A stretch of DNA of 64,000 bases from Candidatus Doudnabacteria bacterium (lineage in GTDB: Bacteria > Patescibacteriota > Doudnabacteria > UBA920), in the NCBI GenBank assembly GCA_023245895.1, contig JAHFJJ010000002.1, positions 3,348-67,347 of the forward strand, in the 5' to 3' direction. The notes under the pieces were generated by a model, which saw nothing but the letters and a program-made list of their open reading frames with translations, did not search any database and was not told the DNA's origin. Each line of letters starts with the position of its first letter. Position 1 is the stretch's first letter. Below are positions 11,076 through 24,261 of the stretch, one piece after another. The translations under genes and the position numbers were made by a program.

Positions 11076-11140
11076 ATGCTATTATACTTAAATTTTTTAA
11101 TTTTCGGTACTTCGTTAAGTTTACTATGTATATCTCATTT

Positions 11141-11947
11141 TTAAAACTTTTTTGATTCAGGGATTTTAGAAGCGGCAATGCCTTGGTCTCGTTCTGGCAT
11201 TACCAATTCCAAACCCTCATCACCTATTTTAATTTCTTGAGCGGCTAAAATTTTCAAGCTCCTTGCAAGTTTAATAAAATTAAACCAATCATCAGCGTCT
11301 CTATATTCCCCAAGTTTCCTCTTCATTTTTTTCCAGGTTTTTTGGTCCGGTTGACAGTCAATTGGTACGCTTAAAAGTTTAATACGCGCCGCGAATTCAA
11401 CATACTCTTCCAGGTTCGAGGTTCGCTTTTCTTCCAATTCCATTTTCATGCCTTCAATCACCCGCTTATCTATACCCAGTTCCGCATCGGGTTTGAACAA
11501 CTTTAAACTCCCCGCCTCATAAGCAAAGTTCCAAAATTTATTGGCTGAACGAAGCGCCTGATTTTTGGACCTTTTTATGCTTCTTACTCCTGCGGCTACG
11601 GCTTTTTTTATAATCTCCTGGTCTGCGCTTATTTTAAGCACCCTTAAACAAGCTAAAAAACCTACATTTTCATAGGAACCGAAATCGGTGGTGGATTTTT
11701 GTTTTAACATTGCTTCTAATCCCCGGCGCCAGCTGTCGGTTAATTGGAATTTAATATTGGGATCCAGAATTTTTAAACTTAGCATATGATCTACGCTACC
11801 TGAGCTTTGGGAAAATGATTGCATTGCCCGCCAGTCTTCCTGCGTGACTTCAGTAGCGGTGTCAAAAGTTCCCGCAGGCCTTTCCTGCTCAACGCTGAAA
11901 TTTTTTATATTCAGTTCTTCCGCCGGAATTCGCGTTTCAATAGCCAT
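11141..11947 (-). CDS. tandem-array paralog 13 (most distal) of the 'M-A/S-I-E-x-R-I ... K-x-F' family
   Basis: 268 aa. Starts MAIETRIPAEELNIKNF and ends KIPESKKF. Confidence 0.8.
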   Translation of the reverse strand: MAIETRIPAEELNIKNFSVEQERPAGTFDTATEVTQEDWRAMQSFSQSSGSVDHMLSLKILDPNIKFQLTDSWRRGLEAMLKQKSTTDFGSYENVGFLACLRVLKISADQEIIKKAVAAGVRSIKRSKNQALRSANKFWNFAYEAGSLKLFKPDAELGIDKRVIEGMKMELEEKRTSNLEEYVEFAARIKLLSVPIDCQPDQKTWKKMKRKLGEYRDADDWFNFIKLARSLKILAAQEIKIGDEGLELVMPERDQGIAASKIPESKKF

Positions 11948-11951
11948 AAAA

Positions 11952-12815
11952 TTAAAACTTTTTTACTTCGGGCAGATCTTGGGTTTTAGCCCCAACTTTA
12001 GGCTCAGGCATTTTTATTTTTAAACCCGCTTCCGTAACCCTAACCTCCTCGGCCGCAAGAATACCTGCATCGGCAATAAGCACAACAGCCTCTCTTATAT
12101 TCCCGTCGCGCAGGTAATCGCTGATTGTCGTTCTAATCCCATCCCAGGCTTTGGCCGTTACCCTTATTTCTTTTAGTACATCGGGCGCGCCGACTTTTAA
12201 CAGCATTGCGTAATTAGTAAAATTAGCCCACTCCTCCGCCTGGCCGTAATCTTTTACAGACTGCACCATTTCCAAATCCGGGTCAAGGACTTCTTCCCGC
12301 AGGTCCAAAGGCATTTTATTTGGGTACAGTACTTTTAGCGCAATTTGTGTTTCAATTTGGTTCGCCGATGTGTCGAGGCTATTTTCTTTAGCCATTTCCC
12401 ATAAACCTTCGCCGTCTATGCCGTATTGGGAAAATTTGTCAGGCGCAAAAATTTTCAGGACAGCCGCATCCTGAACCGCATAGCCCAGTACGTCGACGTC
12501 GCATAATTCCCCATCGTCCACAAATCTAGCATAATTCTTCCAAAATTGTTTTTCCACAATTTCCTGGCATTTTTCGGCTACTTCTTTAATTTTTTCCGGG
12601 TTCATTTGCAGTAAAACGGTTAAAGCCCAGGCGGGGTAGTCTTCTGTTTCAGCATATTTTGAAGAATTATATTTTTCCAAATAATCTTTAATTTGCTTCC
12701 ACTCCTCTTCTTTGACATCGCGGATCGGATCAAATTCAACAGCCATCTCCAGCCTGTCAATGCTAAAATCCCTAATATTGAGTTCTTGGGTATTGATTCT
12801 TTCTCCGATGGCCAT
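11952..12815 (-). CDS. tandem-array paralog 12
   Basis: True start MAIGERINTQELNIRDF (ATG at 12813-12815); the ORF track extends it to 12944. Ends PEVKKF. Confidence 0.8.
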   Translation of the reverse strand: MAIGERINTQELNIRDFSIDRLEMAVEFDPIRDVKEEEWKQIKDYLEKYNSSKYAETEDYPAWALTVLLQMNPEKIKEVAEKCQEIVEKQFWKNYARFVDDGELCDVDVLGYAVQDAAVLKIFAPDKFSQYGIDGEGLWEMAKENSLDTSANQIETQIALKVLYPNKMPLDLREEVLDPDLEMVQSVKDYGQAEEWANFTNYAMLLKVGAPDVLKEIRVTAKAWDGIRTTISDYLRDGNIREAVVLIADAGILAAEEVRVTEAGLKIKMPEPKVGAKTQDLPEVKKF

Positions 12816-12816
12816 A

Positions 12817-13659
12817 TTAAAAATTTTTAGTTTTAGGAACCGGGGGCGTTTCCAGGATTTTTGGTTTTGGCTTGCTTTGCAGGTGGAGTCCCGATTGGTT
12901 AATTTCAATTTGGTCTGCTGAAATAATCGCAAGTTCACACGCAAAATCCAACTGGTCTTCAGGCGGCATGCTATGAAACTTTGTTTTTATTTCTATCCAC
13001 TCGGTTTCGTCCACAGCCTGTAAGTCAAACTTGCCAGGCAAAATAACGCGCAGGACGGCCAGTTGGCTTACCAAACTCCGCCAGGACTTTTTAGAGCGGC
13101 TTAATTTAATTGAACCTTGCAACTCCGGCAAAAAGTCTTTGGCTAATTTTAGCTTGTTGTTAGGCGTTAGGATTTTTAGGTTTTTATAGACTTCCTGGGT
13201 CAGACTGCCTGAGCCGACGCCTGCACAAAATTCAATTGCTTTATTTCTCGCGGCTAGTGGCAGTAAAAAATCCGGCATAATTTTTTTAATGGAGTATGCC
13301 GCGCGGATGAGCGTATCGGTGGTAGCGGCAGTCTCCCCGTTGGAATTTTTTTCAACCAGATATTCCCAGGTTTTTTCCAGCCCTTCTCTTAATTTCGTCA
13401 TTTGACCAGAGGACAGCCTTTTTAAAGTTTCCGCCTTCAAGAAACATAAATTGCCTAAGTTTTTTAGACGGTGGGGAACAACACTGCCTGAGGCAAGCCA
13501 GGGTAAATCTTCGGCAGCTAAATTTTCAAAAACTTTCCACTCCCGCTCGTAAATATCTTTTTTCGGGTCAAAGCCCGCGGTGTTGCCGGCTTGCTCTCTC
13601 TCGATGCTCAAACCTTTAATATTTAATTCTTCCCTAGGAATTCTATATTCAATAGGCAT
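12817..13659 (-). CDS. tandem-array paralog 11
   Basis: Starts MPIEYRIPREELNIKGL and ends PVPKTKNF. Confidence 0.8.
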   Translation of the reverse strand: MPIEYRIPREELNIKGLSIEREQAGNTAGFDPKKDIYEREWKVFENLAAEDLPWLASGSVVPHRLKNLGNLCFLKAETLKRLSSGQMTKLREGLEKTWEYLVEKNSNGETAATTDTLIRAAYSIKKIMPDFLLPLAARNKAIEFCAGVGSGSLTQEVYKNLKILTPNNKLKLAKDFLPELQGSIKLSRSKKSWRSLVSQLAVLRVILPGKFDLQAVDETEWIEIKTKFHSMPPEDQLDFACELAIISADQIEINQSGLHLQSKPKPKILETPPVPKTKNF

Positions 13660-13661
13660 AT

Positions 13662-14447
13662 TTAAAAGTTTTTAGTTTGCGGGACAGGTTGCGTGCTGGT
13701 GAGCGGCACTTGTTCTTCCGCCATAACCAATTCCAGCCCCTTGTCTGTAATTTTTACTTCTTTGGCGGCTAAAATTGACATGCTATAGGCAAGCATAAGG
13801 CTGTCAAGGTCCGTTTGGACTGTTTTTTGGAGGGTTGTTTTCATTGCTTTCCAGTCAGCTTTGCTTATTGCAGTCTTGGCAAATTCTTCCGGAAACAAAA
13901 TTTTTTCCCTGGCCGAGTAGGAAGCAAATAACCTGGGGGCGTGTAATTGTTTATCGGGCTCAAATTTCATATGCTGGAGCCACATACCGGCCTTTTCCGG
14001 AAACAGGATTTTCATATTTTTTGCCATTTCCCTGTAAGTTTGGTCCTTTTTAGCCAATCTTGTGTCGTGAAGCTTTTGAATAATCTTGCCTAAATAATTG
14101 TCCAGGTTTTTTGATTTAACCACTTCCGGCCATAATTGTTTAATGGTAGCGCCCAGTGAGGCAACGTCATACCATTGGTTTCGTCTTATGGCCTCGGAAA
14201 GGTCGCGGTCAGCCGCGTTTTTTTCTTGTTCCTGCGCGGGCAAAGCGCCGGGCTGCATGGTCCTAAGTCGGGCCAAGTAAGTATAGCCGCCTCTAGAAAG
14301 ACCATTAATAGCCAATTTAATTTTCCGCCATTGTTGCGGACTCAAATCCCGCGCGGGGTTAAACACCGCCCGGGTTTCCGCCCTATGCTCGGTGTGGAAG
14401 CTTTTAATATTCAAGTCTTGTTGTGGAATTCGTTGTTCTAAGGACAT
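13662..14447 (-). CDS. tandem-array paralog 10
   Basis: True start MSLEQRIPQQDLNIKSF; ends PVPQTKNF. Confidence 0.8.
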   Translation of the reverse strand: MSLEQRIPQQDLNIKSFHTEHRAETRAVFNPARDLSPQQWRKIKLAINGLSRGGYTYLARLRTMQPGALPAQEQEKNAADRDLSEAIRRNQWYDVASLGATIKQLWPEVVKSKNLDNYLGKIIQKLHDTRLAKKDQTYREMAKNMKILFPEKAGMWLQHMKFEPDKQLHAPRLFASYSAREKILFPEEFAKTAISKADWKAMKTTLQKTVQTDLDSLMLAYSMSILAAKEVKITDKGLELVMAEEQVPLTSTQPVPQTKNF

Positions 14448-14448
14448 A

Positions 14449-15279
14449 TTAGAAGTTTTTAATTTGGGGGATTTCTGGAGCTTTTTGCATAGTATTTTTT
14501 TCAGGCATAACAATTTCCAGGCCGTTGTCGCCAATTTTTGCTTCTTTGGCGCCAAGAATGGTCATTTCTTTTAATTTATAGCACGTGTAATAAAAGTCCC
14601 CATGAATAAGGCTGGATTCAACTGACTGCTTAAAATTTTTTTTCATCTCTTTCCAGTCGCCTGGGCCTATAACCAAGGCGTCCGGATAGCTCATTTTTAA
14701 GCTGGCGGCATCATTCCTAATAAGCTCCCAATATTTTTCCCGCTTTGCCTTTTGTGTTTTAAAATCAGCTAATATAATGTCTTTTGGTACCATATATTCT
14801 GGAGTAACTTCATCCGGAAATAGGATTTTCAAATAACAGTAAGTACGGGGAGAAAAGTTGTTTCTGATAGGGTTTAATTTTATTTTTTGCCATAAAGGGG
14901 CTAGTTTGGCTGTTAGGTTTTCAGCAGCAAAAGTTTCGGGGTCCAGCCTCTTGAGTTCAGCGGCGTCGACAAAAGGGTCGGTAATACTTTGCCCGGGCTC
15001 TTCTGCCTTTAGCAAGTCTTTTGTAAATTTTGATATTATCCTTTGCCTGCAAACTTCAGCCATATCCGGGAACAGTTCAGGATTAATCCCTTTTAAGAAT
15101 GTTAAAGTTCCTATTGGCAGTGCTTGGCTGTCGGCTGTTAAAATAAACTCTCTTAACGCCTTCCATTGCTCGGGAGTAACCTCTTCCATGGGATTAAACT
15201 CGATATTTACTCCCCGCTGTTCCAGGCTGAACTCCCTGATATTCAGTTGTTCGGTATTTATCCGTTGGTCTAAGGACAT
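14449..15279 (-). CDS. tandem-array paralog 9
   Basis: True start MSLDQRINTEQLNIREF; ends PEIPQIKNF. Confidence 0.8.
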   Translation of the reverse strand: MSLDQRINTEQLNIREFSLEQRGVNIEFNPMEEVTPEQWKALREFILTADSQALPIGTLTFLKGINPELFPDMAEVCRQRIISKFTKDLLKAEEPGQSITDPFVDAAELKRLDPETFAAENLTAKLAPLWQKIKLNPIRNNFSPRTYCYLKILFPDEVTPEYMVPKDIILADFKTQKAKREKYWELIRNDAASLKMSYPDALVIGPGDWKEMKKNFKQSVESSLIHGDFYYTCYKLKEMTILGAKEAKIGDNGLEIVMPEKNTMQKAPEIPQIKNF

Positions 15280-15280
15280 A

Positions 15281-16093
15281 TTAAAAATTTTTAATTTTTG
15301 GCAGGGTTGATTTAGTTTCGGCTTCAAAAGCCGCGGGTCGGGTTATTTCCAAACCATTTTCGGTAATCTCTATTGCAGGGGCTGTGGCAATAAGCAAGTT
15401 AAAGGCATCTCCCACAAGTTCAGAAGGATGAGTTTTGTTTTTCTTTAGGTGTTTTTTCATTGCTTGGACAAATTCTGGCCCAAGCTCGGGCTTAAACCAA
15501 GGGTCAATAGTTCTAATACAGGCGCCATATTTAAAAATATCTGAAACCGAGGAGCCTGGCCTGGCTTTTAGAGCATCAAAGTCTTCCTTAAAAATTACAT
15601 CCGGCCCCGCATCTAAGTTGGGCAGGAAAATATAATCGTTTAATTGCAAACCGGTTATTTTCATATCGGCAAAAACTTGCATACTGTAGAAAGGGGCGTC
15701 GCTTTTCAGAAATTTATCTATTGAGTTAACTTCTTTCGCCGTAAAATTAAATTCATAGTTTATTGGCTTTAAAATTTTTAGTGCCGCTAGCGTATCGAAA
15801 AATTGATCCCAATGCTCTAACATCCTGCTTTCTCTCACTACCGCCATAGTTCTCTCTTCCCATTCAGGGTCGAAGTTAATTGCGATTGCCGGATTTAAGA
15901 GCTTTATTTTAGAAGCAATCCGGGCGGAGTCATCGGGCTTAAATTCTTTATTTTCCTCCATTACCTGCAAAAGATCGTCCCACTGCTCAGCACTAATATC
16001 CCGCTCTGGGTCAAAGCTCTCGTTATTCCACTCCTGAAAATTAAAGTCTTTAATATTTAGTTGTTCGGTATTTATTCGTTTGTCTAAGGACAT
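15281..16093 (-). CDS. tandem-array paralog 8
   Basis: Starts MSLDKRINTEQLNIKDF and ends LPKIKNF. Confidence 0.8.
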   Translation of the reverse strand: MSLDKRINTEQLNIKDFNFQEWNNESFDPERDISAEQWDDLLQVMEENKEFKPDDSARIASKIKLLNPAIAINFDPEWEERTMAVVRESRMLEHWDQFFDTLAALKILKPINYEFNFTAKEVNSIDKFLKSDAPFYSMQVFADMKITGLQLNDYIFLPNLDAGPDVIFKEDFDALKARPGSSVSDIFKYGACIRTIDPWFKPELGPEFVQAMKKHLKKNKTHPSELVGDAFNLLIATAPAIEITENGLEITRPAAFEAETKSTLPKIKNF

Positions 16094-16094
16094 A

Positions 16095-16886
16095 TTAAAA
16101 AGTTTTAAATTGCGGGAGAGCGCCGGCAGGCTCAGCCAGCTCGCCCGAGGAAATGGTTAATTCCAGGCCATTGTCTGTTATTTTTATTTCCTCGGCCGAA
16201 ATTATGCCCATATAGTAGGCCAGTTTAATGGCCCTTAAATAATCACGGCTGTTTTGGCGCTTTTCAAAAAGAATTTGGAATTCGTATTTCATTTTTTTCC
16301 AGTTTTCTTTGGACACAGGGGCTTTTTTAAATTTTTCCGGCGCGACAATTTTTTGGCTGGCCTTAAAGCCGGCGTAGGTTTCGGCAAATTGGTATTCAGG
16401 TTCGGTATTAAGCTCTGGAATTTTAAATTTTTCTGCTTTGTCCGGAAACAGTATGGTTAATTCCCTGGCCATTTGTATCCTATTGACTTCGCCAAACTTT
16501 CCTTCCAAAGCCAGCGCCAGTTGGTCCAAATCACCTTCAAGGCCTATGGCTTTAAACTCTTTTGGATAAAGCTGCTTCATCGCAAGCGCTATTTTTGGCA
16601 CTGCCCGCCAGTTGTCTTTGGCCATCAAAGCCTCTAGTTCGTCGCTAACAACCGACTTGGTGGAAGGCTTGTCTACTATTTTGTATAAACAGCCCGGCCT
16701 TATAGTCCTTAGTTCCGCCAAAGCCGTCCAGGACAAATGGGTATTCATAAAACTTTCAATAATTTTCCATTGCTCGGGCGTAATATCCCTGTTTAAATTA
16801 AACTCCTGGGGTGCCTCCTGGACGCCAAGGTTTAGGTCCTTTATATTTAAATCTTCTGAATCTAATACGCGGTTTTCAATAGCCAT
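16095..16886 (-). CDS. tandem-array paralog 7
   Basis: Starts MAIENRVLDSEDLNIKDL and ends ALPQFKTF. Internal repeats include AMKQLYPKEF and LTILFPDKAEKF. Confidence 0.8.
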   Translation of the reverse strand: MAIENRVLDSEDLNIKDLNLGVQEAPQEFNLNRDITPEQWKIIESFMNTHLSWTALAELRTIRPGCLYKIVDKPSTKSVVSDELEALMAKDNWRAVPKIALAMKQLYPKEFKAIGLEGDLDQLALALEGKFGEVNRIQMARELTILFPDKAEKFKIPELNTEPEYQFAETYAGFKASQKIVAPEKFKKAPVSKENWKKMKYEFQILFEKRQNSRDYLRAIKLAYYMGIISAEEIKITDNGLELTISSGELAEPAGALPQFKTF

Positions 16887-16888
16887 AG

Positions 16889-17731
16889 TTAGAAATTTTT
16901 AATTTTCGGAATTGCCGGCGTTGCCTGGCTTATTTGGGCGTTGTTTGACAGCTCCATGCCGTGGTTTGTAAATTTCACCTCTTTGGCCGCCATAGTAGCC
17001 AGCCATTCGGCTAAGTTTATATACTGTAAACAGTCATGGCCGCTTTGGCAATTGTCTAATTTTTCAAAAAGTTGGGTTTTCATAGCTTCCCAGTTTTTTG
17101 CGGTAATTTTTACTTTCGCGAATTCTTCCGGAAACAAAATTTTCAACAGGGCCGCGCTTTTGCAAAACATATACCAATTGCCGCCTTTATTTTGCGCCAT
17201 ATCTTGTTTCAATAGCGAAACGTCGTTGTCCTTCAACAGGTCTTTTTCTTGGCCAGGGAAAAGAATTTTAAAATAAAGAACGTTGTCTAAATCTACTGTA
17301 CCCCGGCCTGTTATTTTAGGCTTCCTTAAGGCTTCGGCCATTCGTTCGCGATATTGCTCGGCCAATGCTTGCGAAAACCTTTCCGGAAATAAGGTTTTCA
17401 TTTCGGCAAAATTACCAAGCAAATTATCATAGCCCATTTCTCCCCGCTCGCAATGGCGTAAAATGGTTTTGGCGAATTTATCCATCTTCTGCCATTTTTT
17501 ATTGTCAGATTTTTCAAATAGTCTTTTTGGTTCAATCACCTGCAAACTTGCCAAATAAAGGTCAACATTTTCTTTTCGCGCAGACCGTTCCATTTTATCC
17601 CATTGCGCTTTGCTCAAATCCCTTACCGGATCAAAAGGTACATCCTTAGAAGACTCCGCCGAGGGCAACTGCTCCAGGTTTAACGAGCTAATATTCAATT
17701 CTGCCGGGTTAACCCGCTGTTCTATGGACAT
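16889..17731 (-). CDS. tandem-array paralog 6
   Basis: True start MSIEQRVNPAELNISSL; ends PAIPKIKNF. Confidence 0.8.
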   Translation of the reverse strand: MSIEQRVNPAELNISSLNLEQLPSAESSKDVPFDPVRDLSKAQWDKMERSARKENVDLYLASLQVIEPKRLFEKSDNKKWQKMDKFAKTILRHCERGEMGYDNLLGNFAEMKTLFPERFSQALAEQYRERMAEALRKPKITGRGTVDLDNVLYFKILFPGQEKDLLKDNDVSLLKQDMAQNKGGNWYMFCKSAALLKILFPEEFAKVKITAKNWEAMKTQLFEKLDNCQSGHDCLQYINLAEWLATMAAKEVKFTNHGMELSNNAQISQATPAIPKIKNF

Positions 17732-17732
17732 A

Positions 17733-18530
17733 TTAAAATTTTTTAATTTCAGGAATACGCGAACCAAGTTCCGGTAATTTTTGTACTGCCGGCGACAGTT
17801 CCAGTCCCCTATTCGTAAATTTCAGCTCGCTCGCGGAAATAATAGCCATGTCCCTGGCCAAAGTTATGGCTTTGTCTAAATTCGTGCCTTTTAATTCCGC
17901 GCGCAAGTCTTGTTGCATTCCTTTCCAGGCATTGTCGCCGATGTTTTGAATATTAAAACGTCCAGGAAATAAAATCCGTAATGTGGCCATATCTACAGCT
18001 AAGCTTGGCCAATTTTTGAGTTTTTTTGAAAGACCAATGTTTAGGGTAATAGCAGTAAAATCTTCTTCGTTTACTTCCACTCTTTCAGGCAGCAACCTTT
18101 TCATTCGAGTAGCAAGGTCAAAATAAAGAGCGTCATTCCAATGCCTTAACGCAATGTTTTCCAAGTCCTCGCGGGCAATAAATTTTTCCCACTGGTCAGG
18201 CCATAACTGCCTAATTGACGCGGCGACATCCAAAAAAACCAGCTGGGCTTGAACGTGATTTACTTCCTTTACTCTCCTGGAAATCTGCTCGCTTAGTTCC
18301 GGGTTGGTTGCCGGATTGGGGAGGTTGGGAAAGCTTTCAGGCCTTATTAAGCGCAAATCCGCAATTCTTTCCCAGACATGGTAAGTTTGCTCTACTTCCT
18401 TCGCGTCTGCTTCCATGCGCCGCCAGTCGTCGGGTTTAATATCAAATTCCAGCAAGCCTTTTTCCGGAGTCTGGATATTAAAGTTCTTTATATTCAATTC
18501 TGCCGGGTTAACCAGCTGTTCTATGGACAT
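17733..18530 (-). CDS. tandem-array paralog 5
   Basis: Starts MSIEQLVNPAELNIKNF and ends RIPEIKKF. Confidence 0.8.
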   Translation of the reverse strand: MSIEQLVNPAELNIKNFNIQTPEKGLLEFDIKPDDWRRMEADAKEVEQTYHVWERIADLRLIRPESFPNLPNPATNPELSEQISRRVKEVNHVQAQLVFLDVAASIRQLWPDQWEKFIAREDLENIALRHWNDALYFDLATRMKRLLPERVEVNEEDFTAITLNIGLSKKLKNWPSLAVDMATLRILFPGRFNIQNIGDNAWKGMQQDLRAELKGTNLDKAITLARDMAIISASELKFTNRGLELSPAVQKLPELGSRIPEIKKF

Positions 18531-18531
18531 A

Positions 18532-19365
18532 TTAAAAATTTTTAATTTCGGGCGTCGGTGGAGTCGCGGTTTCTGATTGTTTTTTTGGCATCACCAACTC
18601 CAAGCCCTGCTCTGTAATTTTAATTTCCTGGGCGGCTATCATTGCAAGGTCGCGGATCATGCCGGCTTGGTCCACGCTTTTAGTCTTTCCCTGGGCCAAT
18701 AAAAACTTTAAATGACTTCGCCAAATTTCCCAGGTTTGGCAATCAACTTTTAACTTTTTGGCGTCATCCGGAAGCAAAGCCTTAAAGGCCGCAAAATACG
18801 CGAGTTTTAAGCTAAAATCATCAGCCATAACCTGTTGCAAGGGTTCATTTATAGGTTCTCCTTTTGCCAGAGTTTCCAACCAGGGATCTGTGGGTATTTT
18901 ATCTAAACTGAGTTCACCCGCCCGGTCGGGAAACAGAACCCTCATATCAATTAAAAATCCCGGACCTACGTCGCCTGATGCCAGCTGCTCATTTCCTTTA
19001 CGCCACAGTTTCGGGGCGGTTCTAAAAGTTAGCGGTTCAAATTTATCCGGAAAAAGTTGCTTAAACCCCGCGTATTCCGTAACCACGGAATACCAAAGGT
19101 TTTCGTCAATTAACCCTTGAATCCTCCTTTTAAAAATATCACCCTCCGGCACCGGAATATGGGTAAACTTATCCGGCCGTACTTGCCGAAGCACAGCCAG
19201 CATGCCATAAAAGGCGGGATTGTCAGATATGGTTTGGCTTAAAAGTTCCCAATCCCTTTCGCTCACGTCCCGCTTAGGATCAAATTCAACGCCGGCCTGC
19301 GGCTGTTCCAGGTTCAGTTCTTTTATATTCAATTCTTGCCGATCAATCCGTTTTTCTATGGACAT
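18532..19365 (-). CDS. tandem-array paralog 4
   Basis: True start MSIEKRIDRQELNIKEL; ends PTPEIKNF. Confidence 0.8.
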   Translation of the reverse strand: MSIEKRIDRQELNIKELNLEQPQAGVEFDPKRDVSERDWELLSQTISDNPAFYGMLAVLRQVRPDKFTHIPVPEGDIFKRRIQGLIDENLWYSVVTEYAGFKQLFPDKFEPLTFRTAPKLWRKGNEQLASGDVGPGFLIDMRVLFPDRAGELSLDKIPTDPWLETLAKGEPINEPLQQVMADDFSLKLAYFAAFKALLPDDAKKLKVDCQTWEIWRSHLKFLLAQGKTKSVDQAGMIRDLAMIAAQEIKITEQGLELVMPKKQSETATPPTPEIKNF

Positions 19366-19366
19366 A

Positions 19367-20203
19367 TTAAAAATGTTTAGCTTCCGGCAGCGGCGAGTCC
19401 GCTGTGAAATTTGTTTCCGGTAAAATAATAACTCCGCGTTCATCAATATGTGCGTCCGGGCAGGATAAAATTTTTAAATAACTTCCGACCCTCATCAGTT
19501 CGTAGGGAGCCCCCTGTTCTAGCCAAAATTTTTTAATGCCGCTCCAGTCTCGCGCTTTAATTAGGGGTTTTACATCCGGAGCCATTAACTTTAACGCTAC
19601 TGCTTTGGCTAAATCCGCACTTAAATGGAATTTTGAGTTGGGTGTTATAGCGAAAGATGTTTTTTTCATCTCCTCTATGGCTTTTTCCATAACTTGAGTC
19701 CATCGCATGCCTTTTAAATGCTGGGGAAAAACTTGCACCGCTTCCAAATGCTCATAGGGAAACGCAAGCGAACTTTCAATGCGGTCGTCAACCAGCTTCC
19801 AGTTCTCTTCCGAATTCCACTTTTTCCAAACATCGGTCCGCTCAGGAAACAGCCTTTTATATGCAGACGCGATACCTAAAAATTGCTGTACAGAAGGGCG
19901 GCTGCCTGTAGTCAGAGGCATTTCATTTGCCGCGGCTTCAAGAGCGCTGGCTAATTTTTCTGAAACTTGCGCATCGGGAAACAAAAATTTATAATTCGCC
20001 AAATAATCGGGCTTTTGCCCGAAAGCCGGCCTGCCTTCTTCCCAGTCACCGCTTATCCTAAGAAAGTTTTGCAGGCAGACCTCTCTGGTATTTTTTGGAA
20101 TTTCAACCTCGGGGTTAAATTTAAACCCGTCCACAGGCTCCTGTTCAAAGCTCAGCTCCTGGACTTTTAATTCGTTCGGGTCAATGCGTTTTTCAATGGC
20201 CAT
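19367..20203 (-). CDS. tandem-array paralog 3
   Basis: Starts MAIEKRIDPNELKVQEL and ends PLPEAKHF. Confidence 0.8.
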   Translation of the reverse strand: MAIEKRIDPNELKVQELSFEQEPVDGFKFNPEVEIPKNTREVCLQNFLRISGDWEEGRPAFGQKPDYLANYKFLFPDAQVSEKLASALEAAANEMPLTTGSRPSVQQFLGIASAYKRLFPERTDVWKKWNSEENWKLVDDRIESSLAFPYEHLEAVQVFPQHLKGMRWTQVMEKAIEEMKKTSFAITPNSKFHLSADLAKAVALKLMAPDVKPLIKARDWSGIKKFWLEQGAPYELMRVGSYLKILSCPDAHIDERGVIILPETNFTADSPLPEAKHF

Positions 20204-20204
20204 A

Positions 20205-21011
20205 TTAAAAATGTTTAGTTTCCGGAGGGCCGGTTTTGTTGTCAGTCTGCATTTCTGTTAAATTGCCCAACTCCAGGCCATTGTTTGTAACTTTTACTGT
20301 AGAAGCCGAGGCAATAACTGCGTTTACCGCATTTTCTGAAACCGGGAAAAGATCTGTTAATTCTGTCCCTGCCTTTAGTACTCCTTTTATAGCTTGGAAG
20401 TGTTTGGGTGTTAATTCAGGGTCAAAATTAGGTTTAACAATTCTCATACTGGCGGCGAAGCGGAATAGTTTTTCAATGGGCGCCTTCTCTTTCATTTCAG
20501 CCATGGTGGCTTCCAAAACACCCCAAAACTCCGGCGTAAGATATTTGTCCATAGGCAGGCCAATAATTTTTATTTCCGCTAAATGCAGCAATTGATAATA
20601 AGGTTCCATATTCGGGTCTGTCAGGAACACTTCTATAGACTCCGCTTCTTCCTGGCTGAATACAAATTTTTTTGAAGGCTGTAGAATCTTGATTGCTAAA
20701 GCTAGCGGTAAAAAGTCGCCCCACTCTTCGTCTTTTTTGTCAGTTTGTAATTCGTTTTCAATTTTAGTAAATTCTTCAGTCTCGATTTTTGGAGCTTCGT
20801 TTGGATACAAGATTTTGAGGTTTGCAGACATTAACGCGACATAATATCTACTACTTCCAGCCCTATAAGATTCTAAATCTCTAAACAAGCCCTGTTTTTG
20901 GCTTTGACTGAAGTCTCTTTTTGGATTAAAAAGGAAAGGCTGTTGCTTTTCGTTGAGGCTCAGTTCTTTGATATTCAGCCCTTCTTGGCTTATTCGTTTT
21001 CCAATAGGCAT
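20205..21011 (-). CDS. tandem-array paralog 2
   Basis: True start MPIGKRISQEGLNIKEL; ends GPPETKHF. Confidence 0.8.
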   Translation of the reverse strand: MPIGKRISQEGLNIKELSLNEKQQPFLFNPKRDFSQSQKQGLFRDLESYRAGSSRYYVALMSANLKILYPNEAPKIETEEFTKIENELQTDKKDEEWGDFLPLALAIKILQPSKKFVFSQEEAESIEVFLTDPNMEPYYQLLHLAEIKIIGLPMDKYLTPEFWGVLEATMAEMKEKAPIEKLFRFAASMRIVKPNFDPELTPKHFQAIKGVLKAGTELTDLFPVSENAVNAVIASASTVKVTNNGLELGNLTEMQTDNKTGPPETKHF

Positions 21012-21012
21012 A

Positions 21013-21876
21013 TTAAAAATGTTTAATTTGTGGGGCGTCAAATTTTGGCTTTCCGATGGGTGTAACCGGCATAACAAATTTAATCCTATTGTCTTCAACC
21101 ACAATGCGTTCCGCGGCCAAAGCTTGCAAAGTTGCCGCAACATTTAAAAATGTAGTCCAATTGCCCCTCTTCCGCCATCCTTCAAGGATGTCCCTTAGTT
21201 TTTTTACAGGCGGCAATTTCCCCTGCCAATGTGCGGCAAGTTCCGGGAAAGCGTACTTAATAGCGGCGGTTCTATTGATAAGCACGGAAGTTTCGTTTAA
21301 GTGTTTTTTGTTGTCACTATATTGTTTGTAAGCCCATTCCCAGGCAGTGGCACAAAACTGTTTTGCTTCTTCCGGCAGAGGTTCGGTCGGATAACAAATT
21401 GCGAAATTTTTAATTAACTTTACACCCTCATCAATCCAGTTGGTTGTCGTGTAATACAAAACGCTTTCTTTTAAAAGCTTAAATATTTCCGGGTTTTTTA
21501 AAATTTGCGCGCAATTCTGCGGGAACAAAATTTTCATCATCATTAGAGCCTCTGCTAGTTTTCCCGGTTTGCTTTCAGTTAAGTGTTGTTCTATTATAGT
21601 TTTTAAATTTTCTTCCTTAACAAAAGTTTTATTCTCATATGGAAAGTGCAAAAGCTGCGCGGGCGCCAAATAGTAGATGCTGGCGTACAAGTCATTTTCC
21701 GCTCTGGGCGCGCCGGAAGCTTTTTTAAAACTTACCAAAGACTCCAATATCCTGGTTTTGTCTGAATCTGTTATGTCGCGATTGGCATCAAATAAAATTT
21801 CAGTACTTTGGGAGCTTTCCAAAGATAAATCCTGAATTTTTATTTCTTGCGGATCAATCCGTGTTTCTATGGCCAT
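21013..21876 (-). CDS. tandem-array paralog 1 (first after the ATPase)
   Basis: True start MAIETRIDPQEIKIQDL (ATG at 21874-21876); ends DAPQIKHF. Confidence 0.8.
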   Translation of the reverse strand: MAIETRIDPQEIKIQDLSLESSQSTEILFDANRDITDSDKTRILESLVSFKKASGAPRAENDLYASIYYLAPAQLLHFPYENKTFVKEENLKTIIEQHLTESKPGKLAEALMMMKILFPQNCAQILKNPEIFKLLKESVLYYTTTNWIDEGVKLIKNFAICYPTEPLPEEAKQFCATAWEWAYKQYSDNKKHLNETSVLINRTAAIKYAFPELAAHWQGKLPPVKKLRDILEGWRKRGNWTTFLNVAATLQALAAERIVVEDNRIKFVMPVTPIGKPKFDAPQIKHF

Positions 21877-21919
21877 AGTCTTAAAAAACAAGCCGGAGTT
21901 TCCGCTCCGGCTCGTTAGG

Positions 21920-24043
21920 TTAAAATTGCTTTGCCGCGGGCACGAATTCGGTGGTGGCAAAACCCTGCAAACCGCGGATTTGCTTTATTATTTCTTCAAA
22001 ATCTTTTTTAGTGTCTTCCGAAGCCTTTTTGCGCTCATCATAAGCTTCCTGGCCAATATAGCCCATGATTTTGTCTTTTAATTTTTCGTCATCCATAAGA
22101 ATGCCTACGCTGGTAAGCATATCCACAACCGCTTTGGGGTTTTCACTGCCTTCAAATTGCTTGTAGCTTTCCACCATCACCTGGTAAACCGCTTCGTCAA
22201 AGGACATTTTGCTTGCCTGATAGAGCGGTTTTTTGTTTTTTGCGTCGCGGTAGAGAACAAGTTTTTCCCCAAGGTCCCGGATGGTACGGTAAGAAAGCGG
22301 AATCGTCTGCCTTTTGCCTTCCAAAAAAGAGCGTATTTTAGGAAAGGCTTCGTTAATTAAGGTGTAAAGTTTTCCTAAGTCTTCTTTAGAGCGCAAGAAT
22401 GTGCCGTCGGGGTTAGCCAGCGCGGAAAGCGACACCAACATTTCCTCTTTGCGTGGCGGGTAGGGAATTTCCATAACTTTGCCTTCGGCGCGCGAAGCCA
22501 AAGCTTCCGGGACTTCAAAGACACCATGCTTGCGTTCAATGTTGGCGGTAAAATACATCCTCCAATTATCGGGAATCGGAATACGCTCATCGTTATCCGC
22601 AAAATACCAATCCTCCCCGGGTTTGGCAGTTAAAAGCCCGTAAATTAAGCTCCAGTTTTTGTTTTTGTTAAATTCGTCCATTAGCACGCTGTCCCCCCGC
22701 CTTAGGGCCGCTGTAATAACCCCGTCGCGCCAGCCGTTCTTTTTGACAATATGCGCGAACTTTTTGGCCAACTCCCCGCGGAAAGCCGCCTCGGCCATGT
22801 TTACAACTTTGGTTTGTAAGTCGCGCAATTGCGGTACATCTGCTGCCTTGGTTTTTTCAGCTGCCTGCAAAGATTCCTGTATTTGGGCTATTGCTGTAAC
22901 AGCCGCCTCGTCCGGATTGAGATGCAAAGTTTCCCCAAGGAGCTTGCTGTGTTCGGAAACAAAATCCCTAAATTTTTCAGGATCCAGTCCTCGAAGGTCA
23001 TCGCTCAGCTTATTATAGTACTCAGTTGGGTCTTTAAATTCCAAAGATTTTGAACCGTAGAGCATGTAGCGGGTTACATCTTCGGACAAATCAAGATAAA
23101 CATAATTCCTGCCTTTTTCTTCCAGGTAATGGCGGACAAGCGTGGTCTTGCCCACGCCCGGAGGCCCAACTAAAACGCCGCCGACTGTGGTGCGCTGGTG
23201 CTGGGTTTCCCATTCATGGAGCATGTTTAAAGAATGGATGACGCTTTGCGTTTCCACTACATCTTCGCCTTCTGAAAATTGTTTTAAAACAGTTTCTATT
23301 TCTTCTTTGCCGGAAAAATACCTGACCATGGGGTCTTCCCACAGTTCCTCTATTTTAGCCCTGGCCGCGGCGAGTTCTTCTTGCAGCTGCTTTTTTGAAC
23401 GCGGAAGTTTGCGCTCTTTTTGAGTTTTAAATTCTTTTAAGGCGTTTACATACTCCTCTGATTCCTCATCAAAAATAGTTTTTAGCGCCTGTTCAATATT
23501 GTTGACATCGTCAGTTTGGACTTCGTCTGAAACCGACTGGCGCTGGCTTACGGCCTCGGCGCGGGCGTAAGAAATATCATCCAGGCCTTCGGCGCTGGCA
23601 AAGCTTGCCTGCTCAAGCAAGCCTGAAAGTTGGGTCGCGGTTTTAAGGCTATTTTTAAACTCTAAATAGTCAAGCTTCGAGCGGATGTATTCCCTATAGG
23701 CTTTTTCAAAAGACAGCTTTTCTTCGTCGCCCAGCCAGCCTTCAATTTCCGTTTTTTTGGCCTTATAATGTTGGGCGGCTAAAAATCTGTCATCGGCGCT
23801 TTTTGCAGACTTAACAATGCTCCTCAAATCCTGGGCTTGTTTTATCAAGAGCTGGAATTGTTCAATAGCTTTAAGGCGCAAATCACGTTCAAGTTCCGGG
23901 ACATTTTCCAAAGCTTGCTCGCGGGCTTCCCTTAAAACCCTATTTGCTTCAGGCTGTGTTTTTGTCTTTCTGCTTTCCTTTGCGGCGGCTTTTACTTCGG
24001 GCACTTCCCCACCCAAATGACGCGGCAATAGACGTTCGGGCAT
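21920..24043 (-). CDS. AAA+ ATPase (MoxR/AAA_5-like core with a long coiled-coil N-terminal region), first gene of the operon
   Basis: 707 aa. Walker A is GPPGVGKT and Walker B is DSVLMDEFNK, the DE-x-N-R/K signature of the MoxR/dynein-related clade. About 160 aa are inserted between the two Walker motifs. The C-terminus ends ...VPAAKQF, a K-x-F tail like that of the downstream paralogs. Confidence 0.8.
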   Translation of the reverse strand: MPERLLPRHLGGEVPEVKAAAKESRKTKTQPEANRVLREAREQALENVPELERDLRLKAIEQFQLLIKQAQDLRSIVKSAKSADDRFLAAQHYKAKKTEIEGWLGDEEKLSFEKAYREYIRSKLDYLEFKNSLKTATQLSGLLEQASFASAEGLDDISYARAEAVSQRQSVSDEVQTDDVNNIEQALKTIFDEESEEYVNALKEFKTQKERKLPRSKKQLQEELAAARAKIEELWEDPMVRYFSGKEEIETVLKQFSEGEDVVETQSVIHSLNMLHEWETQHQRTTVGGVLVGPPGVGKTTLVRHYLEEKGRNYVYLDLSEDVTRYMLYGSKSLEFKDPTEYYNKLSDDLRGLDPEKFRDFVSEHSKLLGETLHLNPDEAAVTAIAQIQESLQAAEKTKAADVPQLRDLQTKVVNMAEAAFRGELAKKFAHIVKKNGWRDGVITAALRRGDSVLMDEFNKNKNWSLIYGLLTAKPGEDWYFADNDERIPIPDNWRMYFTANIERKHGVFEVPEALASRAEGKVMEIPYPPRKEEMLVSLSALANPDGTFLRSKEDLGKLYTLINEAFPKIRSFLEGKRQTIPLSYRTIRDLGEKLVLYRDAKNKKPLYQASKMSFDEAVYQVMVESYKQFEGSENPKAVVDMLTSVGILMDDEKLKDKIMGYIGQEAYDERKKASEDTKKDFEEIIKQIRGLQGFATTEFVPAAKQF

Positions 24044-24261
24044 ATATTTTGGTTAATTTAAAGTTGGTTTCTTTTGTTGATTTTAGGCTAAAACACCCTT
24101 TAATTATAATATAAATTTTGTTATTTTGCAAAAAGGCTTTTATTATAGGCAATCCGAGCTTATTCCCTTAAAGTAAAAAATTGATTTCAGCCCACAAACA
24201 CAATGGGCTGCGCTAAGCGCAGCCCGAATTCAAGCCTTAAAATCTTCTTCTTGTAGTATTA

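What the first reader, a model, noticed from the sequence alone, without database searches (positions are those of the whole stretch)
21869..24043. The C-terminal K-x-F tail is shared between the AAA+ ATPase and all 13 paralogs
The ATPase ends ...TTEFVPAAKQF. The paralogs end ...IKNF, IKKF, KTF, AKHF, TKHF or IKHF. A conserved basic-x-aromatic carboxy-terminus on both the motor and its putative clients resembles the C-terminal docking peptides used by other AAA+ systems, such as the HbYX tails of proteasomal ATPases. It may mediate binding to a common receptor, possibly the vWA or HExxH protein, which itself ends differently (...KRRQI).
Basis: inference. Interest (0 to 1): 0.6.

Follow-up and report, generated by a model that had tools for sequence, protein, structure and literature searches.

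The report
Shared C-terminal docking tail, AAA+ operon
A MoxR-like AAA+ ATPase and its 13 tandem helical-repeat paralogs in this candidate-phyla-radiation (CPR) bacterium all end in the same peptide (hydrophobic-Pro-x-x-Lys/Arg-x-Phe), which is conserved across hundreds of related proteins and is most likely an undescribed docking tag whose receptor is still unknown.

Summary
On the minus strand, the ATPase (21920-24043) and all 13 paralogs (21876 to 11141) end in P-x-x-K-x-F-COOH. Only 1 of 34 other window genes ends basic-x-aromatic, and none has the Pro.

The full motif is hydrophobic-P-x-x-[KR]-x-F at the extreme C-terminus, after a variable linker.
- It ends 133 of the 150 best representatives of the paralog family (1768 representatives in all).
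- It ends 94 of 96 paralogs in nine operons.
- It ends 33 of 66 full-length ATPase homologues, with 13 more near-variants.
- P(-6) and F(-1) are the only invariant columns among paralogs that share 15-21% identity.

Pro uses all four codons. The tail also persists where no gene follows. Selection therefore acts on the peptide. There is also a nucleotide layer: Arg at -3 is always AGR (43/43), forming a Shine-Dalgarno-like site for the next gene.

The tail is not an HbYX motif. The receptor was not identified. I favour a site within the AAA+/vWA machine, with the vWA metal-binding (MIDAS) site first and the ATPase second. I found no published description of the system.

The parts
21920..24043 (-). 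MoxR-like AAA+ ATPase, 707 aa. Walker A is GPPGVGKTT and Walker B is VLMDEF. About 280 aa of helical region lie N-terminal to the AAA+ core.
   Evidence: Pfam AAA_5 E=4e-11 and partial NCBIfam GvpN match. 70 homologues at 31-61% identity, some named MoxR-like ATPase by JGI.
21923..21943 (-). ATPase C-terminal tail V-P-A-A-K-Q-F-COOH, encoded as GTG CCC GCG GCA AAG CAA TTT.
   Evidence: 33 of 66 full-length homologues end [KR]xF, 31 of them with Pro at -6. P702 is conserved in at least 90% of 62 ATPases, while the preceding ~12 residues vary.
21883..21916 (-). 12-bp G+C-rich hairpin followed by U6, lying between the ATPase stop codon and the ATG of paralog 1. It looks like an intrinsic terminator or attenuator.
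   Evidence: RNA fold -21.8 kcal/mol, z = -4.4, 0 of 200 shuffles as stable. Sequence.
24103..24132 (-). Promoter-like site TTGCAA-17-TATAAT, 60 nt upstream of the ATPase start.
   Evidence: Consensus scan only. Two terminator-like hairpins (24389-24354 and 24225-24205) separate it from the upstream TPR gene.
21013..21876 (-). Paralog 1, 287 aa, ends PQIKHF.
20205..21011 (-). Paralog 2, 268 aa, ends PETKHF.
19367..20203 (-). Paralog 3, 278 aa, ends PEAKHF.
18532..19365 (-). Paralog 4, 277 aa, ends PEIKNF.
17733..18530 (-). Paralog 5, 265 aa, ends PEIKKF.
16889..17731 (-). Paralog 6, 280 aa, ends PKIKNF (Phe codon TTC).
16095..16886 (-). Paralog 7, 263 aa, ends PQFKTF.
15281..16093 (-). Paralog 8, 270 aa, ends PKIKNF.
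14449..15279 (-). Paralog 9, 276 aa, ends PQIKNF. This is the paralog modelled with AlphaFold2. It is an all-alpha repeat with a C-terminal beta-hairpin (residues 246-257), followed by an unstructured linker and tail (258-276).
   Evidence: AlphaFold2 mean pLDDT 87.7, pTM 0.82, tail blocks 71-77. No significant Foldseek match in the PDB.
13662..14447 (-). Paralog 10, 261 aa, ends PQTKNF.
12817..13659 (-). Paralog 11, 280 aa, ends PKTKNF.
11952..12815 (-). Paralog 12, 287 aa, ends PEVKKF.
11141..11947 (-). Paralog 13, 268 aa, ends PESKKF. It is the last in the array, with a 65-nt spacer before the vWA gene, and it still keeps the tail.
8958..11075 (-). vWA partner, 705 aa. It has an N-terminal domain with an invariant HEAxHH motif, a K/E/G-rich linker, and a C-terminal vWA domain with an intact metal-binding (MIDAS) site (DTSES ... 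GGGT ... TDG). It ends KRRQI.
   Evidence: Pfam VWA 4.5e-12. Conservation map over 53 homologues. N-domain AlphaFold2 pLDDT 88, with beta-strands before the HExxH helix. No PDB fold hit. Only single weak SprT-like and DUF2201_N hits.

Best explanation
**What the tail is.** The tail [LIMV]-P-x-x-[KR]-x-F-COOH is a C-terminal short linear docking motif on a flexible linker.

**What it does.** It tethers each member of an expandable family of variable alpha-solenoid proteins to one common pocket in the co-encoded MoxR-like AAA+/vWA machine. The terminal Phe side chain, the free alpha-carboxylate and the basic residue at -3 form the recognised epitope. The paralogs then act as interchangeable clients or adaptors, with constant handles and variable bodies.

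**The ATPase's copy.** The ATPase's own copy of the tail is an auxiliary ligand for the same pocket. It could act as a placeholder, an autoinhibitor or an extra tether. This would explain why it is dispensable in some lineages.

**Favoured receptor.** I favour the metal-binding (MIDAS) site of the vWA partner, with the C-terminal carboxylate as the metal ligand. This would resemble the C3b C-terminus bound to the vWA domain of factor B.

**Second function.** In Arg-type arrays the same codons also serve as the ribosome-binding site of the next gene.

**Shown:** the existence, position, conservation and peptide-level selection of the motif; intact MIDAS and Walker motifs; and obligatory co-occurrence of the three gene types.

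**Inferred:** that the motif binds anything at all, and which site it binds.

**Confidence.** The figure of 0.5 applies to 'docking tag for a receptor inside the AAA+/vWA machine'. For MIDAS specifically I give about 0.3.
For: 1. Among 18 paralogs at 15-21% identity, the only invariant columns are P(-6) and F(-1). In a 142-sequence alignment these two columns rank 5th and 4th of 276 by information content.
2. 133 of the 150 best family representatives end Pxx[KR]x[FY], and 135 of 150 have Phe as the very last residue. The free carboxyl end is therefore part of the conserved feature.
3. 94 of 96 paralogs in nine operons carry the tail. This includes terminal genes with nothing downstream, and 134-151 aa mini-paralogs that keep only the two termini.
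4. 33 of 66 full-length ATPase homologues end [KR]xF, 31 of them with Pro at -6, after a variable linker.
5. All four Pro codons are used, along with TTT/TTC, TAY (Tyr) in L003, and both K and R. The motif's register is fixed to the C-terminus, while the stop-to-ATG spacing ranges from -1 to +70 nt.
6. No gene other than the ATPase, the vWA protein and the paralogs is shared by the 11 loci. A receptor encoded with the system must therefore be one of these three.
7. The MIDAS residues DxSxS/T/D are conserved in 53 vWA homologues.
8. A protein's C-terminal carboxylate is an established MIDAS ligand in C3b-factor B (PMC12847986, PMC11130238). In the MoxR/vWA pair NorQD, the MIDAS site binds the client rather than the ATPase (PMC9976466).
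9. A natural ATPase-paralog fusion (P0007/L013) points to physical association.
10. Paralog pI values range from 4.5 to 9.6, which fits variable binding surfaces on constant handles.
Against: - No binding test or complex prediction could be run.
- AlphaFold2 output gave no coordinates, so tail contacts are unknown.
- K versus R at -3 does not co-vary between the ATPase and its paralogs. L011 and L012 have K in the ATPase and R in the paralogs.
- In the most distant operon (L006), both the ATPase and the paralog lack the terminal [KR]xF, yet the MIDAS site is intact.
- In L003 and L004 the ATPase lacks the tail while the paralogs keep it.
- In NorQD the MIDAS site is not needed for ATPase binding. 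An ATPase tail aimed at MIDAS therefore has no precedent.
- Part of the conservation at -3 and -2 is at the nucleotide level, because Arg there is encoded only by AGR.
Confidence: 0.5

Rival explanations
1. The receptor is the AAA+ ATPase itself, either its ~280-aa N-terminal helical region or the ring face or pore. Paralog tails would dock there as ESCRT-III MIM motifs dock on the Vps4 MIT domain, or as the SspB XB tail docks on the ClpX N-domain. The ATPase's own tail would act as a pseudo-substrate, an autoinhibitor or an inter-protomer latch. Six equivalent pockets could accept tails from several partners.
For: - The ATPase has a large conserved N-terminal region of unknown function, with motifs such as PERLIPxHxGGE and SFEKAYREYI.
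- A ring offers six identical sites.
- Some vWA homologues also end [KR]x[FY] (11 of 53). A MIDAS receptor in cis would not explain this.
- The natural ATPase-paralog fusion points to association.
- Known AAA+ adaptors use terminal peptides in this way (my own knowledge of ClpX-SspB and Vps4-ESCRT-III).
Against: - No MIT, PUB or other peptide-binding domain was detected in the ATPase.
- MoxR-type ATPases are not known to thread tails.
- Nothing was tested directly.
Confidence: 0.25
2. The receptor is the solenoid body of the paralogs. The helical-repeat groove would bind the tail in cis, giving a closed form, or in trans, giving head-to-tail chains. The ATPase tail would recruit paralogs as the Hsp70/Hsp90 EEVD tails recruit TPR co-chaperones.
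For: - Alpha-solenoids commonly bind extended C-terminal peptides.
- The tail's pLDDT is 71-77 without secondary structure, which is higher than usual for a free tail.
- The bodies carry conserved Trp, Asp and Lys residues (W39, W209, D29, K110) that could form a pocket and a clamp.
- The N-terminal motif LNIKxF resembles the tail xIKxF within the window.
Against: - The paralog tails are better conserved than the ATPase tail. This is the reverse of what is expected if the ATPase tail were the main ligand.
- A pLDDT near 70 is also typical of any conserved linear motif.
- There is no coordinate or contact evidence.
Confidence: 0.12
3. The tail is read by a housekeeping factor encoded elsewhere. 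It could be a C-degron for a protease, a PDZ or TPR protein, a localisation or export signal, or a substrate for C-terminal modification.
For: - A terminal hydrophobic residue plus a free carboxylate is the classic PDZ or tail-specific-protease ligand type (my own knowledge).
- A membrane-anchored TPR protein is encoded just upstream in the window.
- A weak RimK-like ATP-grasp gene precedes the operon in L010.
- The L001 copy lies among type IV secretion-like genes.
Against: - None of these neighbours recurs in the other loci.
- The TPR gene is separated from the operon by two terminator-like hairpins and a promoter-like site.
- The paralogs have no signal peptide or transmembrane segment.
- The motif was not seen on any non-system gene in the window.
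Confidence: 0.08
4. The tail has no binding function. It would be a by-product of the conserved gene junction, meaning a purine- or A-rich ribosome-binding region for the next gene, propagated with each tandem duplication and homogenised by gene conversion.
For: - Arg at -3 is AGR in 43 of 43 cases, against 50% in gene bodies (p = 6e-13). It is AGG in 28 of 43, against 15% in bodies (p = 3e-12).
- This gives AGGAG or AGGAA 8-14 nt before the next ATG.
- All K and R codons seen at -3 are purine-only ARR triplets.
- Tails are more alike within an array than between arrays.
Against: - Pro(-6) uses all four codons, and aromatic F/Y is conserved across TTY and TAY.
- K-type arrays (window, L005, L010) contain no Shine-Dalgarno-like sequence in the tail, and their K codon usage does not differ from the gene body (p = 0.21).
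- The tail is kept where no gene follows. Examples are the window ATPase with its hairpin spacer, window paralog 13, the last L001 paralog before a convergent gene, and L012 genes with 24-57 nt spacers.
- The register is fixed to the stop codon, not to the next ATG.
- ATPase orthologues at 40-60% identity keep the tail.
Confidence: 0.05

Closest known systems
MoxR-type AAA+ / vWA-MIDAS two-component remodelling systems (NorQ-NorD, CbbQ-CbbO, RavA-ViaA)
   Same: An AAA_5/MoxR-like ATPase is encoded next to a ~700-aa protein with the layout N-domain, disordered linker, C-terminal vWA domain with intact MIDAS. In those systems the MIDAS site captures a carboxylate on the client (PMC9976466).
   Different: This system adds an obligatory third component, an array of 1 to at least 17 solenoid paralogs. 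The ATPase is much larger (707 aa, with ~280 aa N-terminal and a ~100-aa insert). The vWA partner has an HEAxHH N-domain. A shared C-terminal tag on motor and paralogs has not been described for those systems. The ATPase shows only weak sequence similarity to any solved structure.
HbYX tails of proteasomal ATPases (PAN, Rpt, Mpa)
   Same: Both are short conserved C-terminal peptides on an AAA+ motor with an aromatic residue and a functionally important free carboxyl end.
   Different: HbYX is hydrophobic-Tyr-any, with the Tyr penultimate. Here the last residue is an invariant Phe, the penultimate residue is variable and polar, a basic residue sits at -3 and a Pro at -6. HbYX occurs on the motor only and docks into 20S alpha-ring pockets. 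Here the clients carry the tail more consistently than the motor, and no peptidase ring is encoded nearby.
C3b C-terminus bound to the factor B / C2 vWA MIDAS (complement C3 convertase)
   Same: The alpha-carboxylate of a protein's last residue ligates the MIDAS Mg2+ of a vWA domain (PMC12847986, PMC11130238). This gives a chemical rationale for an invariant terminal position next to an invariant MIDAS.
   Different: There is no sequence or evolutionary relationship. The C3b terminal residue is not Phe and has no P-x-x-[KR] context. Binding here is only hypothesised.
ESCRT-III paralogs with C-terminal MIM motifs docking on the Vps4 MIT domain
   Same: A family of small helical paralogs shares a C-terminal linear motif that recruits one dedicated AAA+ ATPase.
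   Different: The ATPase here has no detectable MIT domain. The motor itself carries the motif. The paralog fold is a repeat solenoid with no PDB match, not an ESCRT-III hairpin. A vWA partner is present.
Hsp70/Hsp90 EEVD-COOH tails bound by TPR carboxylate clamps; PTS1 (SKL-COOH) bound by the PEX5 TPR
   Same: Different proteins share a terminal tripeptide plus free carboxylate that is read by one helical-repeat receptor. The paralogs here are helical-repeat proteins, and a TPR gene lies next to the operon in the window.
   Different: The motif chemistry differs: EEVD is acidic, and PTS1 has its basic residue at -2 and Leu or Met last. The neighbouring TPR gene is transcriptionally separate and is absent from the other 10 loci.

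Membership tests
HbYX motif (proteasomal AAA+ C-termini) | Hydrophobic residue, then a penultimate Tyr, then any last residue | tested here: not met
   The window ATPase ends K-Q-F. In 33 tail-bearing homologues, position -2 is S/N/K/T/Q/G and -1 is Phe in all 33. Paralogs have -2 K/N/Q and -1 Phe in 135 of 150.
HbYX motif (proteasomal AAA+ C-termini) | A partner 20S/HslV-type peptidase ring with inter-subunit pockets | tested here: not met
   No peptidase-ring gene lies in the window or in the 10-kb flanks of 10 related loci. Whole genomes were not examined.
MoxR-type AAA+/vWA pair | AAA+ module of the AAA_5/MoxR type with Walker A and Walker B | tested here: met
   Pfam AAA_5 E=4e-11, above the curated cut-off, in two stretches. 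GPPGVGKTT and DEF are invariant in 62 homologues. The protein is divergent: PDB profile hits come only from the P-loop region.
MoxR-type AAA+/vWA pair | A co-encoded vWA protein with an intact MIDAS (DxSxS...T...D) at its C-terminus | tested here: met
   Pfam VWA 4.5e-12. DTSES, GGGT and TDG are conserved in 53 homologues. The ATPase and vWA genes are linked in all 11 loci.
MoxR-type AAA+/vWA pair | One vWA protein bound to a hexameric ring, with ATP-dependent client remodelling | not testable with these tools
   This needs biochemistry or cryo-EM.
MIDAS ligand through a C-terminal carboxylate (C3b-factor B type) | The ligand's last residue is positionally invariant, so that the alpha-carboxylate is presented | tested here: met
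   Phe is the final residue in 135 of 150 family representatives. Rare 2-4 residue extensions look like stop-codon losses.
MIDAS ligand through a C-terminal carboxylate (C3b-factor B type) | Direct metal-dependent binding of the tail to the vWA domain | not testable with these tools
Only monomer models without coordinates could be obtained.
TPR/PDZ carboxylate-clamp ligands (EEVD, PTS1, class I-III PDZ) | The tail matches a known ligand class, and a cognate TPR/PDZ receptor is conserved with it | tested here: not met
   [KR]-x-F fits none of EEVD, [SAC][KRH][LM] or [ST]/hydrophobic/[DE]-x-hydrophobic. The TPR gene 24398-25156 is cut off from the operon by terminator-like hairpins. It has no counterpart in the other loci.
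Zincin-type metallopeptidase (for the vWA protein's N-domain) | An HExxH helix preceded by a beta-sheet, plus a significant family or fold match | tested here: inconclusive
   HEAxHH is invariant, and the topology is beta-strands then the HExxH helix. Only single-member weak hits were found to SprT-like (0.0063) and DUF2201_N (0.058). There was no PDB hit by profile or by Foldseek.

The most novel reading that the evidence does not exclude
The paralog array would be a library of interchangeable adaptors or sensors for one MoxR-like/vWA machine. Each has a variable body and a constant handle. Each would plug in by presenting its terminal Phe carboxylate to the vWA MIDAS metal, with the motor's own tail acting as a competing placeholder. 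This would be a modular, tag-addressed AAA+ system specific to CPR bacteria. It would be functionally comparable to F-box or ESCRT-III/Vps4 logic, and it might serve in surveillance or host interaction.
Probability: 0.2. Interest if true: 0.8.

Novelty: new variant of a known kind. Interest (0 to 1): 0.6.

Why it matters
- CPR (Patescibacteria) genomes are small, so a 13-gene array (about 11 kb) next to rpsB-tsf is a large investment in a system of unknown function.
- The paralog family is large, with 1768 cluster representatives at E <= 1e-3. It has no Pfam, NCBIfam or PADLOC model, no PDB fold match, and no description in the literature I could search.
- The shared terminal tag gives a concrete experimental handle. 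A 7-residue peptide can be used for pull-downs, and as a sequence rule for listing every client of the machine in any genome.
- If the tag binds the MIDAS site, it would be a bacterial example of C-terminal-carboxylate MIDAS recognition. It would also show how a MoxR/vWA chaperone can be re-targeted by swapping adaptors.
- The dual coding is a clean natural case of overlapping peptide and translation-initiation constraints.

Tried and rejected
- **Word-index search with the 18-paralog profile.** It found only the window's own proteins. The exhaustive profile search replaced it.
- **Metagenome and viral scans with the ATPase alignment, and tblastn against phages.** These returned only P-loop matches or nothing. 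There is no evidence of a phage origin.
- **K/R co-variation between ATPase and paralog tails as a co-evolution test.** Rejected: it holds in the window, L001, L005 and L010 but fails in L011 and L012.
- **Upstream TPR protein as the receptor.** Rejected: terminators and a promoter lie in between, and it is not conserved in other loci.
- **Loss of MIDAS in the tail-less distant operon L006.** Not seen: the MIDAS site is intact.
- **Homology between the ATPase and the paralogs.** The ATPase has 'ALKxIYPE'-like units. hhalign gave a probability of 0.3%, which is not significant.
- **Fused or long family members as Rosetta stones (P0140, P0150, P0158).** They have no Pfam domains.
- **Organism name via cluster look-up.** No names are recorded. 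The CPR assignment rests on named homologues from Parcubacteria and Daviesbacteria.
- **Complex structure prediction.** This was not possible with the tools, and monomer models return no coordinates. Tail contacts could not be read.

Full report
**Anatomy of the locus**

The region 8958-24043 is a single minus-strand gene cluster set among housekeeping genes. These include rpsB, tsf, prfA, prmC, L25, ftsW, dnaE, thrS, cysS and dnaB. The cluster contains three gene types.
- A 707-aa AAA+ ATPase at 21920-24043. It matches Pfam AAA_5 at 4e-11 and has Walker A GPPGVGKTT and Walker B DEF.
- Thirteen tandem paralogs of 261-287 aa, running from 21876 down to 11141. Most are separated by only 1-4 nt (TTTtaaTATG).
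- A 705-aa protein at 8958-11075. It has an N-terminal HEAxHH domain, a K/E/G-rich linker, and a C-terminal vWA domain with an intact metal-binding (MIDAS) site, DTSES...GGGT...TDG.

A promoter-like site (24132-24103) and two terminator-like hairpins separate the cluster from the upstream TPR gene. A strong hairpin followed by U6 (21916-21883; -21.8 kcal/mol, z = -4.4) lies between the ATPase and paralog 1.

**Checking the observation**

The ATPase ends VPAAKQF.

Background is low. One of 34 other window genes ends [KR]x[FY], and none has the Pro. Fourteen of the 16 six-frame segments that end P..[KR].[FY] belong to this system.

**Conservation outside the window**

- *ATPase.* 70 homologues at 31-61% identity were found. 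All the named ones come from CPR lineages (Parcubacteria, Daviesbacteria). Of 66 full-length sequences, 33 end exactly [KR]-x-F, and 31 of these have Pro at -6. Thirteen more are near-variants: non-basic-x-F/Y, [KR]-x-I/V, or the motif followed by 1-4 extra residues. In the 62-sequence alignment P(-6) is at least 90% conserved, while the 10-15 residues before it vary.
- *Paralogs.* An exhaustive profile search found 1768 cluster representatives at E <= 1e-3. Of the best 150, 133 end P-x-x-[KR]-x-[FY], and 135 have Phe as the last residue. The consensus is [ET]-x-P-P-[LIM]-P-E-x-[KR]-[KNQ]-F.
- *Operons.* I examined eleven operons in all: the window plus ten fetched loci. In nine of them (window, L001, L003, L004, L005, L010, L011, L012, L020), 94 of 96 paralogs carry the tail. 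The other two are L006, described under exceptions, and L013, the fusion locus.
- *Column ranking.* Among 18 paralogs sharing only 15-21% identity, P(-6) and F(-1) are the only invariant columns. In a 142-sequence alignment they rank 5th and 4th of 276 positions.

Array size varies from 1-2 to at least 17 copies. Gene order also varies: ATPase-paralogs-vWA, ATPase-vWA-paralogs, or a divergent upstream array. The three gene types always occur together, and no other gene recurs with them.

**Peptide or nucleotide constraint?**

The answer is both, with the peptide dominant.

Evidence for peptide-level selection:
- Pro(-6) uses all four codons in every array.
- Phe uses TTT and TTC, and it is replaced by Tyr (TAY) in L003.
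- K and R interchange at -3.
- The tail is kept where no gene follows. Examples are the window ATPase before its hairpin spacer, window paralog 13, the last L001 paralog before a convergent gene, and L012 genes with 24-57 nt spacers.
- The motif's register is fixed to the stop codon, while the stop-to-ATG distance ranges from an overlap to 70 nt.

Evidence for a superimposed nucleotide constraint:
- In Arg-type arrays, Arg at -3 is AGR in 43 of 43 cases. Gene bodies have 316 AGR against 313 CGN (Fisher p = 6e-13).
- It is AGG in 28 of 43 cases, against 15% in gene bodies (p = 3e-12).
- Codons -3 and -2 therefore read AGGAGG or AGGAAR, 8-14 nt before the next ATG. This is a Shine-Dalgarno-like site.
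- Lys-type arrays (window, L005, L010) have no such site, and their K codon usage does not differ from the gene body (p = 0.21).

The tail is therefore dual-coded in some lineages. It is not explained by the junction.

**Exceptions**

- In L003 the ATPase reads ...CAG CAG TGA ACA TTT TAG. An in-frame stop sits exactly at position -3, followed by Thr-Phe-stop.
- In L004 the ATPase ends PQVVKT, with TAG at the Phe position. That TAG forms TAGGAG, a ribosome-binding site for the vWA gene. Both arrays keep perfect paralog tails.
- In the most distant operon (L006, 31% identity), the ATPase (LPEATHI) and the single paralog (LPDRSAA) both lack [KR]xF, although the MIDAS site is intact.
- The paralog tail is therefore the primary, better-conserved element, and the ATPase copy is dispensable.
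- K versus R at -3 does not co-vary between the motor and its paralogs.
- vWA homologues end in a basic helix (EFLKREVxKRRxx). Eleven of 53 end [KR]x[FY] and about 21 of 53 end in an aromatic residue, but they lack the Pro and the linker.

**What the proteins are**

Paralog 9 was modelled with AlphaFold2 from 142 sequences (mean pLDDT 87.7, pTM 0.82). It is an all-alpha repeat protein of four to five ~45-aa units with the signature A-x3-K-I-L-x-P. It ends in a beta-hairpin (246-257), followed by an unstructured linker and tail. The tail's pLDDT of 71-77 is typical of a conserved, conditionally ordered motif.

Foldseek found no significant PDB match for the paralog. There are also no Pfam, NCBIfam or PADLOC hits. 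Paralog pI values range from 4.5 to 9.6.

Mini-paralogs of 134-151 aa keep only the N-terminal motif ([IL]-N-[IV]-[KRH]-x-[LF]) and the tail. A natural ATPase-paralog fusion exists and is followed by the vWA gene.

The HEAxHH domain of the vWA protein models confidently (pLDDT 88), with beta-strands preceding the HExxH helix. It has no significant family or fold match.

**Mechanism**

The anatomy is a variable body, a flexible linker, and an invariant terminal motif whose last residue is fixed. That is the anatomy of a C-terminal docking tag.

No fourth gene is conserved with the system. The receptor is therefore most likely one of the three components. I commit to a common pocket in the AAA+/vWA machine (confidence 0.5).

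Within that claim I favour the vWA MIDAS site (about 0.3), for these reasons:
- It is the one module in the operon whose established role is to capture a carboxylate.
- Its residues are invariant here.
- MoxR/vWA partners use the MIDAS site for the client (NorQD, PMC9976466).
- A protein's terminal carboxylate is a proven MIDAS ligand (C3b-factor B, PMC12847986 and PMC11130238).

The ATPase as receptor, in the style of Vps4-MIM or ClpX-XB docking, is nearly as likely (0.25). The solenoid groove as receptor, in the style of EEVD-TPR, remains possible (0.12). An unlinked factor (0.08) and a pure junction by-product (0.05) are less likely.

**Comparison with known systems, and novelty**

The ATPase/vWA pair meets the sequence-level criteria for a MoxR-type pair, although the ATPase is divergent.

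The tail fails the HbYX definition on two counts. The aromatic residue is in the wrong position, and there is no peptidase ring.

Literature searches on MoxR, CPR/Patescibacteria, vWA and C-terminal motifs found no description of this three-component system or its tag. That search covers only the held library.

I rate the finding as a new variant of a known kind. It is a MoxR-like/vWA machine with an expandable family of tag-bearing solenoid partners.

Noticed in passing
L001, L003, L004, L011, L012, L020 paralog 3' ends; contrast window 11141-21876: In Arg-type arrays, tail codons -3 and -2 are AGG AGG or AGG AAR. Arg there is AGR in 43 of 43 cases against 50% in gene bodies. This forms a Shine-Dalgarno-like site 8-14 nt before the next paralog's ATG. 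Lys-type arrays, including the window, have AAA and no such site. The peptide tail and the next gene's ribosome-binding site are therefore dual-coded.
   Followed up: yes
window 21883-21916 (- strand): A 12-bp G+C-rich hairpin plus U6 lies between the ATPase stop codon and the paralog-1 start (-21.8 kcal/mol, z = -4.4). It may be a terminator or attenuator that sets the ATPase:paralog expression ratio.
   Followed up: partly
L003 12275-12298; L004 12299-12330: In L003 the ATPase ORF has a TGA exactly at tail position -3, followed in frame by ACA TTT TAG. This could be a recent nonsense mutation or a read-through site. In L004 the ATPase stops with TAG at the Phe position, and TAGGAG serves as the vWA gene's ribosome-binding site.
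   Followed up: partly
L013 493-3522 (protein P0007, 1009 aa): A natural in-frame fusion of the ATPase to one paralog. The ATPase's ...AEFP joins directly to IQLNIKSL..., the fusion keeps the paralog tail PEIRKF, and the vWA gene follows.
   Followed up: partly
window paralog N-termini, e.g. 15240-15279 (- strand); 111 of the 150 best family representatives: A second conserved handle sits at the paralog N-terminus: [IL]-N-[IV]-[KRH]-x-[LF], followed by E-x-P...FDPxxDI. In the window it reads LNIKxF, which resembles the C-terminal xIKxF. Its function is unknown.
   Followed up: partly
window 23990-24043 (ATPase N-terminus) and homologues: ATPase homologues share an N-terminal peptide (P)ERL[IL]PxH[IL]GGE. 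It loosely resembles the paralog N-terminus (P)ERINIKDL found in some lineages. The pattern P[ED][RHKN][LIMFV] occurs in the first 30 aa of 31 of 66 ATPases and 51 of 141 paralogs.
   Followed up: partly
L005 5027-5446, 7904-8344, 13115-13570; L011 11635-12039: Mini-paralogs of 134-151 aa retain both terminal motifs but only a fraction of the helical repeats.
   Followed up: no
window ~23460-23500 (ATPase residues ~183-195); P0024 residues 240-620: The ATPase contains units such as 'ALKTIFDEESEEY' and 'ALKGIYPKEKEE' that resemble the paralog repeat signature A-x3-K-I-L-x-P-E. P0024 has extra copies in a ~200-aa insert. Profile-profile comparison was not significant (probability 0.3%).
   Followed up: yes
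window 8111-8722 (- strand) and 24398-25156 (- strand): An NYN-domain (RNase-like) protein lies just downstream of the vWA gene. A TPR protein with an N-terminal transmembrane segment lies just upstream of the ATPase. Neither is conserved next to the system in other loci.
   Followed up: partly
L001 1521-9298 and 18771-22067: In the Daviesbacteria genome the operon sits among VirB4-like, TrbL/VirB6-like and coupling-protein-like genes, an M23 peptidase and a DNA methylase. This looks like a conjugative or mobile-element context. In the window the operon sits among housekeeping genes.
   Followed up: no
L010 2190-3389: A weak RimK-like ATP-grasp gene lies immediately upstream of the ATPase in one locus. 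RimK-type enzymes modify protein C-termini. It was seen only once.
   Followed up: no
L011 8964-9320 and 9389-9949; L020 5660-6547: Decay events occur within the arrays. One paralog is split into an N-terminal and a C-terminal fragment. Another has a 2-residue extension after the tail (…PRTKKYGR) where it overlaps the next gene.
   Followed up: no
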